A stretch of DNA of 64,000 nt from Nitrosopumilus sp. (GTDB taxonomy: Archaea > Thermoproteota > Nitrososphaeria > Nitrososphaerales > Nitrosopumilaceae), in NCBI GenBank assembly GCA_965223425.1, contig OZ245003.1, positions 1,440,001 through 1,504,000 of the forward strand. The letters are read 5' to 3'. The notes under the pieces are model-generated. The model ran no database searches. It worked only from the letters and a program-made list of their open reading frames with translations, and was not told where the DNA came from. Below, in pieces: positions 59,121 to 64,000 of the stretch; within the stretch, counting starts at the first letter, position 1; every line of letters starts with the position of its first letter. A program made the translations under genes and the position numbers.

Positions 59121-60494
59121 TCAATATTCCACCTCACTTCTTGCAAGTAGGTTATAGGTTAGATCGACATATCCTTGTGGATCAACTTCTTTTGCAAATC
59201 CCTTATCGATGTTTATGAGATAAATGGAATGTAGATGGGCATTTAGAATGTCCTCATACCGGATTGGCGGATTTTTATAGTAACGATCGCAAAGATTCTT
59301 GATTTTATCTACATCTTCTTTCTTCCTTGCATTTGGGGGCAACAAGAAAATTTTTGGTATTGGCAAGATTCCAGTAACAGGACTGGCTAATGAAAACTTT
59401 GAACAGTGCTTGCTATATCTTGAAACTTTACTCATTATTCTGGCAGCATAATAATCAACTGTGTCCATTGCATTCTCAGGAGGAGTAAACCCAGTCTCTA
59501 TTTCAACAATGGTATTCCCATCACCTTTTTTTGCAAAGATATCACATACTAAAATATCTGAAAGCGTCTGCTAAACGGGCCGCAGGCAAGACAGCTTGCA
59601 GCAGACCTGGATGCGGGGCCGGAGTCATGCGGCTTTGAGAGCAGCTTGTGGGATTCCAACCTCGTAAGGCTGCACATCAAGAGAAAGTTCGGCGTGCAGT
59701 ACAGCAAGACAGGTGTGCTGCAGCTGATCAAGGAGGTGGGCTTTTCGTGGAGCAAGGCGCGTCCAAAAAACCCAAAATCCACCTCAAAAAAAGAGCAAAA
59801 AGAGTTTCAGGGACGGGCAAAAAAACCCGTTGCAGAAAAGTCGGCGCAGGGATACGCCGTACCGGCCGGCGATGCATCCTCGATTCAAAGGGCATCAAAC
59901 AGGCCCGGCTACGGGTGGAGAAGGCGCGGCAAGCGCGCCACATCTCCCCCTCTGTTTTGCCACGCAAGAGAAGATACATTTAGAGTCCTGTCAGCAAGCG
60001 CATTTTACTTTATGTTTTATGAAAAGCCAGACAGCGACGGCTTTTGCAGCTTTTTGGAACGGGTTCACAAAAGATTCGGCAAGGTGCTGCTGTCTGTAGA
60101 CAATGCGTCATATCACAAATCCAAAAAGGCAAGGGAGTTTCTGGAAAGATACAATGACGGGATAGTTCTGGAGTACCTGCTGCCGTACACGCCGGAGCTT
60201 AATCCCATTGAGATGCAGTGGAGGGTAATAAAACGGGTACTGTCTGCAAAAGTGTTTGGCACGCTAGATGAGATGGAGCAGTCAGTACGCACGCTGTTTG
60301 CCAGAAAGGAGATCCTGCCTGTGAAAATGTTCAATTATTTAATGTGCTAACTATGTTGTCCTTCTGATCCTAGGCGGACTGACTTTTCGTACAATTGAGA
60401 CATAATTTAGTTTGGGCACATCATTTTCTTTGAGATTTTTGGACAGTTTCTCAGTCATCTCATAGACGTCGTTACGGAATTTTTCCAAATCCAT
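59121..60494 (-). pseudogene. host gene split by IS630 element C
   Basis: 5' part MDLEKFRNDVYEM (from 60494); 3' part DIFAKKGDGNTIVEIETG..MDTVDYY (59121-59548). Confidence 0.6.
59561..60353 (+). mobile_element. 5'-truncated IS630 element C
   Basis: GDASS, VDNASYHKS, YTPELNPIE; right end ...GTGCTAACTA. Confidence 0.88.
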
Positions 60495-60510
60495 GATTCA
60501 AAACTATGTA

Positions 60511-61881
60511 ATCTTATGTGCCCCGATCAAGGAAATCAGATGATAAGAGTGGTTCTGGTTCAGAAAACAGAGCCGGTACTGCAAGGATCAGAAATGCAAA
60601 CAAACACACAACCCCAGATCCGAGGATATGCATGTCAGCTGTCTTTGTCGGCCTGGATGTCCACAAGAAGACCATCCAGATGTCAGTCATGGATGAAAAC
60701 GGCGAGGAACTGCTCAACAAAGAGATAGCAAACACAGCCGAAGACATCAGGTACAACATAGGCTGTTTGCACAAGGACTCGAAGCTTGTGATGGAATCCT
60801 CGTCTGTCTGGAAGGCGCCGTTCTTTCAGATAAGAGACGAGCTAAGCATGGACGTGTCGCTGTCAAACCCGTACACCACCAAGCTCATAGCAGAGTCCAA
60901 AAAGAAGACTGACAAGGTGGATGCCAGAATTCTGGCAGACATGCACAGGGGAGGATACATAGTATCGTGCCACGTACCCACGTTGCAGAACATGAACAAC
61001 AGGGACCTGGTGAATTACCGGCACAACCTGGTACGCCACAGGACAGGACTGAAGAACTCCATACACGGCATACTGCTGCAGAGATCGATTCGGCCTGACG
61101 GCAAGCCGTTTTGCGGGCCATGGATTGCGCAGGTTCGAAAGATAAGCGACTATAGGATAGACTCGTACCTGGACACGATAAACAGCATAAACGACAAGAT
61201 ACTCCAGTCAGATGCAAGGGTGCGCCAGGCAGCAAAGGAGAACGAGGATGCAACTCTGCTGCAGACCGTTCCGGGTGTCGGGGCATACTCTGCACTGGTC
61301 ATTGCATGTACAATAGACGGCATAGGAAGGTTCGTCAACTCGCACAAGCTGTGCTCTTATGTCGGCGTTGTTCCGTCTGTGAGATCCTCCGGCGAGTCCG
61401 TGCACTATGGACACATAACGCACCATGGAAGCAGCATATGCAGGTGGGTTCTGACAGAGTGCGTCTTGTCGCATGTAAGGTATGCGCCAGAGTCTGACAT
61501 TTCGATATTCTACAAGAGGCTTGCAAAGAGGAGGGGCAAGGGACGTGCATCAGTGGCTGCTGCCTCAAAGCTGCTGCGAGTCATTTACCGCATGCTCAAG
61601 GAGAGAAGGGCGTTTGTTACAAATTACAGTCAGGATGCCAATTGCGATGAACTCGTTGAGGGACAGACCTAGTAGTCTGTATGCCTCGCCTTGTAATTGC
61701 ATTATACCCTGATAAAAGAATGGAGAATGATACTGAGGGATTGCCTCTGTGATTGCCTCGGATGGATAACTGTTCGCCTCTTTGTTGTCTTGGGCCTTTG
61801 CGGTCTGGAAATAATCCTAGCTTGTGCCGTACCTGTCAGGATGAAAAATGTTGGGAATTCTTATAAGGATGGCACATGGAT
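60511..61881 (+). mobile_element. IS110-family (IS1111-like) element, copy 1; recombinase ORF 60518-61672 (likely start MSAVF at 60632)
   Basis: GLDVHK, VMESS, KKTDKVDA (DEDD), TVPGVG, SSGES, HITHHG; subterminal IR ATGTGCC/GGCACAT; AT at both junctions. Confidence 0.93.
61630..61800 (+). ncRNA. predicted bridge/seekRNA of IS110 copy 1 (mirror copy about 62040-62210 on -)
   Basis: Two stem/internal-loop/hairpin modules carrying matches to target (TGAACTCGT, TTGTAAT) and donor (ATGGAT). Confidence 0.65.
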
Positions 61882-61957
61882 ACGAGTTCACGTCCCCTTA
61901 CAAATAGGCGCGAATTTTACGGAATTTGTGTTGTTTACGCAGAGTAGGTGAACTCAT

Positions 61958-63328
61958 ATCCATGTGCCATCCTTATAAGAATTCCCAACATTTTTCATCC
62001 TGACAGGTACGGCACAAGCTAGGATTATTTCCAGACCGCAAAGGCCCAAGACAACAAAGAGGCGAACAGTTATCCATCCGAGGCAATCACAGAGGCAATC
62101 CCTCAGTATCATTCTCCATTCTTTTATCAGGGTATAATGCAATTACAAGGCGAGGCATACAGACTACTAGGTCTGTCCCTCAACGAGTTCATCGCAATTG
62201 GCATCCTGACTGTAATTTGTAACAAACGCCCTTCTCTCCTTGAGCATGCGGTAAATGACTCGCAGCAGCTTTGAGGCAGCAGCCACTGATGCACGTCCCT
62301 TGCCCCTCCTCTTTGCAAGCCTCTTGTAGAATATCGAAATGTCAGACTCTGGCGCATACCTTACATGCGACAAGACGCACTCTGTCAGAACCCACCTGCA
62401 TATGCTGCTTCCATGGTGCGTTATGTGTCCATAGTGCACGGACTCGCCGGAGGATCTCACAGACGGAACAACGCCGACATAAGAGCACAGCTTGTGCGAG
62501 TTGACGAACCTTCCTATGCCGTCTATTGTACATGCAATGACCAGTGCAGAGTATGCCCCGACACCCGGAACGGTCTGCAGCAGAGTTGCATCCTCGTTCT
62601 CCTTTGCTGCCTGGCGCACCCTTGCATCTGACTGGAGTATCTTGTCGTTTATGCTGTTTATCGTGTCCAGGTACGAGTCTATCCTATAGTCGCTTATCTT
62701 TCGAACCTGCGCAATCCATGGCCCGCAAAACGGCTTGCCGTCAGGCCGAATCGATCTCTGCAGCAGTATGCCGTGTATGGAGTTCTTCAGTCCTGTCCTG
62801 TGGCGTACCAGGTTGTGCCGGTAATTCACCAGGTCCCTGTTGTTCATGTTCTGCAACGTGGGTACGTGGCACGATACTATGTATCCTCCCCTGTGCATGT
62901 CTGCCAGAATTCTGGCATCCACCTTGTCAGTCTTCTTTTTGGACTCTGCTATGAGCTTGGTGGTGTACGGGTTTGACAGCGACACGTCCATGCTTAGCTC
63001 GTCTCTTATCTGAAAGAACGGCGCCTTCCAGACAGACGAGGATTCCATCACAAGCTTCGAGTCCTTGTGCAAACAGCCTATGTTGTACCTGATGTCTTCG
63101 GCTGTGTTTGCTATCTCTTTGTTGAGCAGTTCCTCGCCGTTTTCATCCATGACTGACATCTGGATGGTCTTCTTGTGGACATCCAGGCCGACAAAGACAG
63201 CTGACATGCATATCCTCGGATCTGGGGTTGTGTGTTTGTTTGCATTTCTGATCCTTGCAGTACCGGCTCTGTTTTCTGAACCAGAACCACTCTTATCATC
63301 TGATTTCCTTGATCGGGGCACATAAGAT
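61958..63328 (-). mobile_element. IS110-family element, copy 2 (identical protein, inverted); ORF 62167-63321
   Basis: Reverse complement of copy 1, same 1371-bp length. Confidence 0.93.
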
Positions 63329-63484
63329 TACAAAACTATCTAGTTTTTCGGGGTTTAAGAGTTAGTTGTGATTCAACATGTTTCGTCTCAAGGCACAAAT
63401 CGAGTAAATTACTCAAATAAAATTGAAAAATGAGTAATTTTTCTTCATACTTTGTCTTAACAACAAAAATCAGAATGATTGTCC

Positions 63485-64000
63485 GTGTTCAAAAACAAGG
63501 CTATAACGATAGGATTATTCTCATTTTTAATGCTCCTTTCGTTTATTCCATCTATAGATGCAAAGCTATGGGAGCTAGTAGTCGATGTAAATGTAGAAAA
63601 AGGAGTAATCCATTCAGGCGAAACAGTAGTAATTTCCGGAAAAGTTGTAGATCATGCGTACAAGCCAATGGGTGAGGTCGAGGTATTCATCAGAACAGGT
63701 GCAGATACAACAAAGATATTCACAAACCCAGAAGGCGAGTTTAGAGGTGAATTCAAAAATCTGGAAAGAGTACCGGCAACGTATACAGTTAACGTAGTTG
63801 CATCATGGAACGGAATGACCGGTTTATCAAGCACACAGTTTCAGGTGAAAGGCGATGCAACGCCAGTTTCAGTATTGCAGAAAAAACTAGCTACGGATGA
63901 AGCAAAAAAATATCTAAGCGCTAATGAAAGTGACTTTGAGAAGAATCCAATCGGGCAAACTTTGTTCAAATACTATCATGGTTTATTACAAGAATTAATT
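63485..64000 (+). CDS. secreted hypothetical protein (partial)
   Basis: GTG start MFKNKAITIGLFSFLMLLSFIPSIDA, open to window end. Confidence 0.7.
   Translation, partial: MFKNKAITIGLFSFLMLLSFIPSIDAKLWELVVDVNVEKGVIHSGETVVISGKVVDHAYKPMGEVEVFIRTGADTTKIFTNPEGEFRGEFKNLERVPATYTVNVVASWNGMTGLSSTQFQVKGDATPVSVLQKKLATDEAKKYLSANESDFEKNPIGQTLFKYYHGLLQELI

What the first reader, a model, noticed from the sequence alone, without database searches (positions are those of the whole stretch)
61630..61800. Readable bridge RNA whose guides match the MITE TIR and overlap the recombinase stop codon
Seen, module 1: outer stem TCAGG(61630)/CCTGA, then TGAACTCGT (61648-61656, exact reverse complement of right target ACGAGTTCA; one G-T wobble for copy 2), hairpin GAGG-ACAGAC/GTCTGT-CCTC with the TAG stop at its apex, then TTGTAAT (61691-61697, identical to the left target plus core of copy 2; TGTAAT in copy 1). 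Seen, module 2: stem GAATGG/CTGTTC and hairpin CTGAGG..CCTCGG, then ATGGAT (61762-61767), matching the donor end CATGG|AT; the right-donor match is weak. Established: IS110/IS1111 bridge or seekRNAs use such target and donor loops, 3' of the ORF in the IS1111 group. Inference: a compact archaeal programmable recombinase whose right target guide is encoded in the last codons of the protein.
Basis: partly seen in the sequence, partly recalled or inferred. Interest (0 to 1): 0.85.

Follow-up and report, generated by a model that had tools for sequence, protein, structure and literature searches.

The report
Archaeal IS1111-type insertion sequence bridge RNA
A mobile DNA element in an ammonia-oxidiser-like archaeon carries, at the end of its recombinase gene, a small guide-RNA gene whose loops match its insertion site and its own ends: a real, cleanly readable but ordinary example of the bridge-RNA recombinases described in 2024.

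Summary
The region is the 3' non-coding end of an IS110-family, IS1111-type insertion sequence (1370 bp plus a TA core). Two identical inverted copies sit in the two tips of an 80-bp MITE.

A covariance model built only from five relatives finds the window RNA at 61623-61781 (70 bits, E 8.5e-12). Its stems covary: 18 of 25 pairs show compensatory changes. Across related archaeal loci all four guide segments track the DNA they should read:
- right target guide: 18 of 36 loci at 8/9 or better, against 0.9% for mismatched pairings;
- left target guide;
- left donor guide: 35 of 37;
- right donor guide: 25 of 30.

The core is TA, not AT. The predicted circle junction is therefore wrong by 3 nt. 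The left guide matches only G+TA of the target. The overlap of the guide with the last codons comes from a lost stop codon (TAG to CAG); in most relatives the stop lies in the RNA's first stem.

No expression data could be obtained. Verdict: a new member of a known kind, of moderate to low interest.

The parts
60511..61880 (+). IS copy 1 (1370 bp), flanked by the duplicated TA core at 60509-60510 and 61881-61882
   Evidence: BLAST of the copy against its own genome. Flank comparison and empty MITE tips. Contigs of public runs diverge before 60508 and join at 61880 with 2 ambiguous letters.
60632..61672 (+). tnp, 346-aa DEDD recombinase (ATG start; stop TAG 61670-61672)
   Evidence: Pfam PF01548 and PF02371. 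NF033542. D9, E55, D94, D97 and S253 are invariant in alignment A1.
60516..60522 (+). Left subterminal inverted repeat ATGTGCC, 5 nt inside the left end
   Evidence: Read; complementary to 61871-61877.
61871..61877 (+). Right subterminal inverted repeat GGCACAT, 3 nt inside the right end
   Evidence: The same geometry is seen in relatives.
61623..61781 (+). Bridge/seekRNA gene (target-binding module about 61629-61713, donor-binding module about 61714-61781)
   Evidence: Covariance model R1, built without the window, gives 70.3 bits and E 8.5e-12.
61629..61638 (+). 5' strands of stems P1 (GUCAGG) and P1b (AUGC). Their partners are CCUGAU 61708-61713 and GCAU 61699-61702.
   Evidence: MFE; P1 conserved with compensatory changes. 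P1b in this element is shifted relative to the model.
61648..61656 (+). Right target guide (RTG) UGAACUCGU. It is complementary to the top strand A+CGAGTTCA (second core base plus 8 nt of the MITE/IS66-type repeat tip), with one G-T wobble for the other tip. It lies in codons D-E-L-V of tnp.
   Evidence: Family test.
61657..61688 (+). Hairpin P2, with an extra ACAGAC/GTCTGT extension not present in relatives. The tnp stop codon is in its loop.
61689..61697 (+). Left target guide (LTG) CCUUG-UA-AU: five positions for the left target, the TA core, and two bases identical to the first two bases of the IS left end
61718..61723 (+). Stem P3 5' strand GAAUGG, pairing with CUGUUC 61770-61775
61727..61730 (+). 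Right donor guide (RDG) AUGA. The expected complement of left-end bases 2-5 is AAGA, so it matches 3 of 4.
   Evidence: relatives match exactly in 25 of 30 rows, in three covarying states.
61733..61761 (+). Hairpin P4 (CUGAGG...CCUCGG), with an enlarged loop relative to relatives
61762..61768 (+). Left donor guide (LDG) AUGGA-UA, equal to the last five bases of the right end plus the TA core
   Evidence: 35 of 37 related rows match exactly, in four covarying states.
61861..61866 (+). TATA-box-like TTATAA, 20 nt before the right-end tip; candidate outward/junction promoter (inferred)
   Evidence: an A/T-only run starts at -21 or -20 in 28 of 32 distinct right ends.
61881..61958 (.). Body of the 80-bp MITE between the two IS copies. 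The outer G is at 60508 and the outer C at 63331. The 8-bp target-site duplication AAAACTAT is at 60500-60507 and 63332-63339.
61959..63328 (-). IS copy 2, 100% identical and inverted (tnp 62167-63207; RNA 62058-62216)

Best explanation
The stretch is the guide-RNA gene of an IS1111-type member of the IS110 family in a Nitrosopumilaceae-like archaeon. A transcript of about 150-160 nt (possibly also processed to a target module of about 85 nt) folds into two stem / internal loop / hairpin modules.

In module 1, the 5' loop strand (RTG, 61648-61656) pairs with the top strand to the right of the insertion point. The 3' loop strand (LTG, 61689-61697) pairs with the bottom strand to the left of it and across the TA core. 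In module 2, AUGA (61727-61730) and AUGGAUA (61762-61768) read the element's own left and right ends in the excised circle in the same way.

The DEDD recombinase, bound to this RNA, exchanges strands at the TA core. The element is thereby placed 3 nt inside the terminal repeat (G-TA-YGAGTTCAC) of an IS66-type transposon family and its 80-bp MITE.

Shown by computation: the family, the boundaries, the core, the RNA structure and the covariation of all four guides. Inferred by analogy with IS621 and ISEc11: transcription, RNA-protein binding, circle formation and strand exchange.
For: Protein family.

Boundaries and core: empty and occupied MITE tips differ by the IS plus TA. The MITE carrying two IS copies still has its 8-bp duplication. 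Contigs from 3 of 4 studies join at 61880 with 2 ambiguous letters.

RNA: a model trained on 5 relatives, without the window, hits 61623-61781. It gives 11 hits in the genome, each at a place where, 20 or 21 had put a copy of this IS or of paralogue B. 96.4% of cells are paired, against 37-48% when partners are slid. 18 of 25 pairs have double changes; 0 of 500 shuffles reach the observed values.

RTG against the right junction, allowing a register shift of up to 2: 18 of 36 distinct loci at 8/9 or better, against 11 of 1238 cross pairings. Own mean 7.19 against 4.49; 0 of 20000 permutations reach it. With one copy per distinct guide (n=28): 6.93 against 4.44, 0 of 20000.

LTG: own 7.07 against 5.03 of 9. 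On the five variable positions 3.29 against 1.37 (n=28). With one per guide (n=19): 3.68 against 1.31, 0 of 20000.

LDG 35 of 37. RDG 25 of 30.

Within the genome: paralogue B (50% aa identity) has RTG and LTG at the same positions matching its own flanks, and an empty B target exists. A diverged copy carries two RTG changes that are exactly complementary to the two changes in a variant MITE repeat.

The order of guides (top-strand match 5' of the bottom-strand match, overlapping in the target) and the module sizes fit the published IS1111 seekRNAs: 82-96 nt short forms and 151-172 nt long forms (PMC11187229 sections 6, 9, 13 read; PMC13604230 passages).
Against: - No RNA evidence: no listed public run is on record as RNA.
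- Rfam has no matching family.
- Thermodynamic stability is unremarkable: z -0.27 for 263 nt and -1.02 for the donor module. Only the target module reaches -2.69.
- In this element the RDG matches 3 of 4 bases, and stem P1b is not where the model puts it.
- The MFE fold pairs the LTG with 61640-61647, which would hide it.
- The LTG matches only G+TA of the actual flanks.
- About half of the related loci match their right flank at 7/9 or less. Many of those copies are decayed.
- The alignment used for pair counts was fitted to the model. Related loci are not independent.
Confidence: 0.88

Rival explanations
1. Only the first module (about 85 nt, 61629-61713) is the functional seekRNA. The second module is not an RNA donor loop; the ends are recognised by the protein through the subterminal repeats or at the DNA level.
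For: Siddiquee et al. found predominant 82-96 nt species that contain the two target matches (PMC11187229 section 9). The donor module here is thermodynamically weak (z -1.02). Its RDG is imperfect in this element.
Against: The LDG tracks the right-end tip in 35 of 37 rows over four states. The RDG tracks left-end bases 2-5 in 25 of 30 rows over three states. Stems P3 and P4 show compensatory changes. Long forms of 151-172 nt are also reported (PMC13604230 Table 1).
Confidence: 0.08
2. The matches are sequence fossils or DNA-level sites with no RNA role (for example a captured copy of the target inside the right end, or recombinase binding sites).
For: No transcript has been seen. Part of the region is coding.
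Against: 28 distinct RTG and 19 distinct LTG variants sit in a conserved scaffold and follow their own flanks. One guide is complementary to the target and the other identical to it, as strand-specific RNA pairing requires. Helices are kept by double changes.
Confidence: 0.03
3. The element and its RNA are dead relics, and the pattern reflects past activity only.
For: Only the two window copies keep an uninterrupted tnp. The other copies are frameshifted, interrupted or fragments. The RDG has a mismatch.
Against: The two window copies are 100% identical over 1368 bp of BLAST alignment, with an intact 346-aa ORF and the catalytic residues. Five precise insertions lie at the predicted site.
Confidence: 0.1

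Closest known systems
IS1111-group seekRNA elements ISEc11, ISKpn4, ISPst6 and ISPa11 (Siddiquee et al. 2024, PMC11187229)
   Same: DEDD recombinase of about 340 aa, subterminal inverted repeats, and the long non-coding region 3' of tnp. The RNA carries a top-strand-complementary match 5' of a bottom-strand-complementary match, and the two overlap at the insertion point. Short and long forms are of similar size.
   Different: Archaeal host. The recombinase shows only weak similarity to bacterial plasmid-borne relatives (no more than 36% identity). The RNA scaffold was not found in any of the about 25 bacterial loci searched with the model. The RNA 5' part overlaps tnp by 50 nt. Placement in the IS1111 clade by a protein tree was not tested.
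IS621 / ISCro4 bridge RNA (Durrant et al. 2024 PMC11208160; Hiraizumi et al. 2024 PMC11208158)
   Same: Bispecific RNA with a target loop and a donor loop. Each loop has one guide for the bottom strand on the left and one for the top strand on the right of a 2-nt core. ISCro4 and IS621 are the closest solved structures (E 2.7e-10 and 4.4e-9).
   Different: The RNA is in the right end rather than the left end. The order of guides within each loop is reversed (RTG before LTG). The core is TA rather than CT. The subterminal repeats are 7 bp rather than 2-3 bp.
IS4321 / IS5075 (Partridge and Hall 2003; cited in PMC11208158 and PMC11208160, not read)
   Same: IS1111-group elements that insert at a fixed position inside the terminal inverted repeats of another transposon family, sometimes in both repeats.
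   Different: The target here is the tip of an IS66-type archaeal element and its MITE, 3 nt from the end. Nearly all specificity therefore lies on one side of the core.

Membership tests
IS110 family (DEDD recombinases) | N-terminal DEDD/RuvC-like domain plus C-terminal Transposase_20 domain | tested here: met
   PF01548 E 1.6e-23 and PF02371 E 1.7e-17. NF033542 215.9 bits against a cutoff of 140.
IS110 family (DEDD recombinases) | Catalytic D, E, D, D and the serine of the G..P....SG motif are present | tested here: met
   D9, E55, D94, D97, P248 and S253 are invariant in A1. Assigning these residues as catalytic rests on PMC11187229 section 6 and PMC11208158 passages.
IS110 family (DEDD recombinases) | Site-specific insertion with a 2-nt core at both junctions and no longer duplication | tested here: met
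   TA at both junctions. Empty sites have a single TA.
IS1111 group | Subterminal inverted repeats of 7-17 bp | tested here: met
   ATGTGCC 60516-22 and GGCACAT 61871-77, 7 bp. This is at the lower limit given in PMC11208160.
IS1111 group | The longer non-coding region and the RNA lie downstream of tnp | tested here: met
   208 nt downstream (61673-61880) against 121 nt upstream (60511-60631). The RNA model hit is at 61623-61781.
IS1111 group | [quoted passage not shown] | tested here: met
   RTG 61648-56 precedes LTG 61689-97.
IS1111 group | The recombinase falls in the IS1111 clade of the family tree | not tested
   No labelled IS1111 reference proteins were at hand. The plasmid search gave only generic 'IS110 family' labels.
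Bridge RNA / seekRNA | Two stem / internal loop / hairpin modules conserved by covariation | tested here: met
Bridge RNA / seekRNA | Loop strands covary with target flanks | tested here: met
Bridge RNA / seekRNA | Loop strands covary with donor ends | tested here: met
   In the window element itself the RDG matches 3 of 4.
Bridge RNA / seekRNA | The RNA is made, binds the recombinase and is required for transposition | not testable with these tools
   No RNA holder was listed. This needs an experiment.
Bridge RNA / seekRNA | Match to a curated RNA family | tested here: inconclusive
   Rfam 15 search of 60300-63500 at E up to 10 gave only chance miRNA/snoRNA-type hits on the palindrome. I do not know whether Rfam holds an IS1111 bridge RNA family.

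The most novel reading that the evidence does not exclude
This archaeal clade of IS1111-like elements has three adaptations of the bridge-recombinase scheme not described so far.
(i) A complete BRE/TATA-type promoter lies in the right end, placed so that transcription starts just past the tip. It would therefore drive tnp and the RNA only after circularisation, and read outward into the host transposon when integrated.
(ii) Targeting relies almost wholly on one 9-nt guide plus G+TA, which allows insertion at the extreme tip of another transposon whatever lies beside it.
(iii) The RNA scaffold regularly overlaps the recombinase stop codon.
Probability: 0.25. Interest if true: 0.5.

Novelty: new member of a known kind. 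Interest (0 to 1): 0.33.

Why it matters
The finding adds a fully annotated archaeal example to the bridge/seekRNA recombinases, with boundaries, core, all four guides and natural target. The source is a mesophile-like ammonia-oxidiser lineage in which these elements are multi-copy and diversifying: 28 distinct right guides were seen in a conserved scaffold.

It gives a ready-made natural panel of guide-target pairs for anyone wishing to test an archaeal orthologue. It also corrects the junction that a PCR test would have to look for.

It changes nothing in principle. Archaeal IS110 recombinases are on record (662 in bioRxiv 10.1101/2024.06.21.599552), and bridge RNAs were predicted in 93% of ISfinder IS1111 elements (PMC11208160).

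Tried and rejected
- Rfam gave no relevant family.
- MAFFT alignment of eight RNAs including the window mis-aligned the enlarged hairpin. I built the model from five relatives instead.
- My first regular expression for the right end was wrong and caught only 7 loci (right-hand part). It was replaced.
- With a fixed register the RTG test is weaker: 9 of 36 at 8/9 or better, own mean 4.28 against 3.08. It is still reached by 0 of 20000 permutations. Guides slide by 1-2 nt in the loop, so allows a shift of up to 2 for own and cross pairs alike.
- Rows dropped from the right-junction test: 4 of 41 hits had no right-end motif or under 150 nt downstream (L004, L006, L048:3838, L047), and one was a duplicate.
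- Rows dropped from the left-junction test: 11 of 41 had no recognisable left end, plus duplicates.
- Loci that fit poorly: L002 (4/9), L040 (4/9), L041, L044, L046, L051, L056 (5/9).
- Handshake-like reading of the last two LTG bases: AC/AC in 21, AT/AT in 2, mismatched in 7 of 30 rows. There is too little variation to claim it.
- No consistent match of the bases after the LDG to either the right target or the left end.
- Plasmid tblastn and the PDB search did not place the protein in the IS1111 subgroup as against IS110.
- Public runs: no RNA holder was listed. The tool could not be reached in ten earlier tries.
- Contigs of four runs showed no joint for a circle (61880 to 60511) and no skip of the IS at this locus. 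Contigs cannot show absence.
- Supplements of the papers were not seen. Supplementary Table 5 of PMC11208160 may list predicted bridge RNAs for archaeal ISfinder entries.
- Print searches, the two word look-ups inside bioRxiv 10.1101/2024.06.21.599552 and a passage look-up in PMC13343696 turned up no paper on bridge RNAs in Nitrosopumilaceae.

Full report
**What is there**

The window's last 3.5 kb holds two 100% identical, inverted copies of a 1370-bp element: 60511-61880 on the plus strand and 61959-63328 on the minus strand. Each encodes a 346-aa protein. It matches Pfam DEDD_Tnp_IS110 and Transposase_20 and NCBIfam NF033542, 'IS110 family RNA-guided transposase', at 215.9 bits against a cutoff of 140.

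The genome is 2.64 Mb in 2 contigs. Its SSU rRNA scores 1460 bits with the archaeal model and 1090 bits with the bacterial one. The nearest relatives of the protein, at no more than 58% identity, are in records titled Nitrosopumilus or Nitrosopumilaceae. More distant ones are in Hadarchaeota, Bathyarchaeia and Thermoplasmata, and bacterial ones lie at about 30%.

**Boundaries, core and target**

The 78 bp between the two copies recur five times in the genome. One copy, at C1:2012428-2012505, is free of the IS. With its flanks it reads as an 80-bp MITE: G-TA-CGAGTTCAC ... GTGAACTCA-TA-C, with an 8-bp target-site duplication. In the other three loci the same 8-bp duplication brackets MITE plus IS.

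In the window, AAAACTAT brackets the MITE with both IS copies, at 60500-07 and 63332-39. So the MITE came first and the IS then entered both tips.

Comparing empty and occupied tips, the only duplicated letters are TA. The target is therefore G-TA-YGAGTTCAC and the core is TA. The IS runs from ATCTT-ATGTGCC to GGCACAT-GGA. By contrast there are 12 unoccupied and 5 occupied G-TA-YGAGTTCA sites.

Of 16 left ends of this IS, 15 are preceded by G-TA; beyond that the flanks differ. The same repeat tip ends a three-copy element encoding a DDE_Tnp_IS66 transposase. That IS66 elements make 8-bp duplications and begin with GTA is my recollection, not a result here. One further IS copy sits at the tip of an element with a DDE_Tnp_1 domain.

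Contigs from four public studies hold the IS. In X1, X2 and X4 they diverge into different flanks exactly before 60508. In three studies (X1, X4, X6) they join 61880 to the MITE in the other orientation, with 2 ambiguous letters. One contig shows an empty tip.

**The RNA**

Relatives found with the genome search and the search for related loci show a conserved layout directly after tnp. Five of them, not including the window, gave a consensus structure and the covariance model R1.

R1 finds 41 hits in 82 sources. They include window 61623-61781 and 62058-62216 at 70.3 bits, E 8.5e-12. R1 also finds 11 sites in the window's genome; each lies where, 20 or 21 had placed a copy of this IS or of paralogue B. 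None of the roughly 25 bacterial loci searched gave a hit.

On the 38 distinct rows:
- 96.4% of cells are standard pairs, against 37-48% when partners are slid by 1-3 columns.
- 18 of 25 pairs show changes on both sides.
- 0 of 500 shuffles reach the observed values.

This alignment was fitted to the model, which favours it.

The structure has two modules.
- Module 1: P1 (GUCAGG / CCUGAU), P1b, a loop strand holding the RTG, hairpin P2, a loop strand holding the LTG.
- Module 2: P3 (GAAUGG / CUGUUC), a loop strand with the RDG, hairpin P4, a loop strand with the LDG.

The window element differs from its relatives by enlarged P2 and P4 hairpins and a shifted P1b (AUGC / GCAU).

**Do the guides read the DNA?**

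In the window:
- The RTG (61648-56) is the exact complement of A+CGAGTTCA at 61882-90, and of A+TGAGTTCA with one wobble.
- The LTG (61689-97) reads CCUUG-UA-AU. Only G-TA, plus AT of the IS itself, is matched by real flanks.
- The LDG (61762-68) equals ATGGA+TA.
- The RDG (61727-30) matches 3 of 4.

In the family:
- The RTG matches its own right junction at 8/9 or better in 18 of 36 distinct loci, against 11 of 1238 cross pairings. This allows a register shift of up to 2, and 0 of 20000 permutations reach the observed total.
- With one locus per distinct guide (28 guides), the own mean is 6.93 against 4.44.
- The LTG's five variable positions match at 3.68 of 5, against 1.31 for cross pairings (19 guides).
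- The LDG equals the right-end tip in 35 of 37 rows, over the states ATGGA, ATAGA, ATGGG and ATAGG.
- The RDG equals the complement of left-end bases 2-5 in 25 of 30 rows, over AUAG, AUGG and ACGG.

Two checks inside the genome agree:
- Paralogue B (50% identity, 3 copies) has both target guides matching its own flanks, and an empty B target exists.
- A decayed copy at C1:2105160 has an RTG with two changes. They are exactly complementary to the two changes in the repeat of a variant MITE at C1:633475. That copy's own flank does not match, however.

**Mechanism**

By analogy with IS621 (PMC11208158, passages) and the IS1111 seekRNAs (PMC11187229, sections 6, 9 and 13), the RNA-bound DEDD recombinase would pair the RTG with the top strand and the LTG with the bottom strand of the target. 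It would pair the RDG and LDG likewise with the circle junction, and exchange strands at TA.

The order of guides is the IS1111 order, with the top-strand match first. The module sizes (85 nt and about 150-160 nt) fit the reported short (82-96 nt) and long (151-172 nt) forms (PMC13604230, Table 1).

All of this is inferred; no transcript was seen. Free-energy z-scores are modest: -2.69 for module 1, -1.02 for module 2, and -0.27 for the whole 263 nt. In this element the MFE fold pairs the LTG with 61640-47.

**Coding overlap**

In 23 of 41 related RNA loci the tnp stop (TAG or TAA) lies 8 nt into the model, inside P1. L002 does the same. In 7 loci the stop lies just upstream.

In the window element that codon is CAG. 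The matching change in the P1 partner gives a C-G pair in place of U-A (columns 9 and 127). The frame therefore runs on for 13 codons, through the RTG, to the TAG in the P2 loop. L005 does something similar.

The overlap is real but incidental, and the extra tail is absent from relatives.

**Comparison and verdict**

The closest known systems are the IS1111-group seekRNA elements. IS621 and ISCro4 are the structural paradigm. IS4321 and IS5075 are the precedent for targeting another transposon's terminal repeats.

The features of the IS110 family and of a bridge RNA that can be tested by computation are met. IS1111-clade placement by tree, and all biochemistry, remain untested.

Archaeal IS110 recombinases and predicted IS1111 bridge RNAs are already in print (bioRxiv 10.1101/2024.06.21.599552, passages; PMC11208160, passages). 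This is a new member of a known kind.

Noticed in passing
window 61861-61866; relatives L002-L074, right ends: An A/T-only run (TTATAA, TATAAAAA, TTTAAAAA and similar), preceded by GAAAT, starts 20-21 nt before the right-end tip in 28 of 32 distinct right ends. It looks like an archaeal BRE/TATA promoter. Its start site would fall just beyond the tip, that is, in the left end after circularisation.
   Followed up: partly
window 60500-60508, 61881-61958, 63331-63339; C1:2012428-2012505, 633475-633552: An 80-bp MITE with a GTAYGAGTTCAC repeat and an 8-bp duplication: five near-identical copies plus one variant. Its tip is shared with a three-copy element encoding a DDE_Tnp_IS66 transposase.
   Followed up: partly
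window 59646-60350: An ORF with DDE_3 and HTH_33 domains (IS630-type transposase), apparently a fragment.
   Followed up: no
G000 C1:2046356, 323372, 2067594 (L030): A second IS1111-type family (50% aa identity, three copies) with its own guides. Its target is CAAT-TA-YGCATAAAGTCT. One copy lacks the TA at its right junction.
   Followed up: partly
window about 61795-61860 and the same place in relatives: A conserved CCTAGCGAAAGCCAT-like motif between the RNA and the right end (CCTAGCTTGTGCC in the window), of unknown role. A T-rich tract right after stem P3 (61779-61793) may be an archaeal terminator.
   Followed up: no
G000 C1:304064-304160, 362511-362609, 325993-326092, 2105913-2106008: Four left-end fragments of this IS all break at about 97-99 nt. 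One of them is an internal-deletion derivative.
   Followed up: no
window 61670: One contig of public run X2 reads C for T at the first base of the stop codon (depth 374 of 2492). That would lengthen the frame further.
   Followed up: no
L003, L005, L038 and other right junctions: 7 of 37 right junctions read TT (3) or TG (4) instead of TA after the right-end tip, and some lack 1-2 nt. These may be decay or imprecise events.
   Followed up: no
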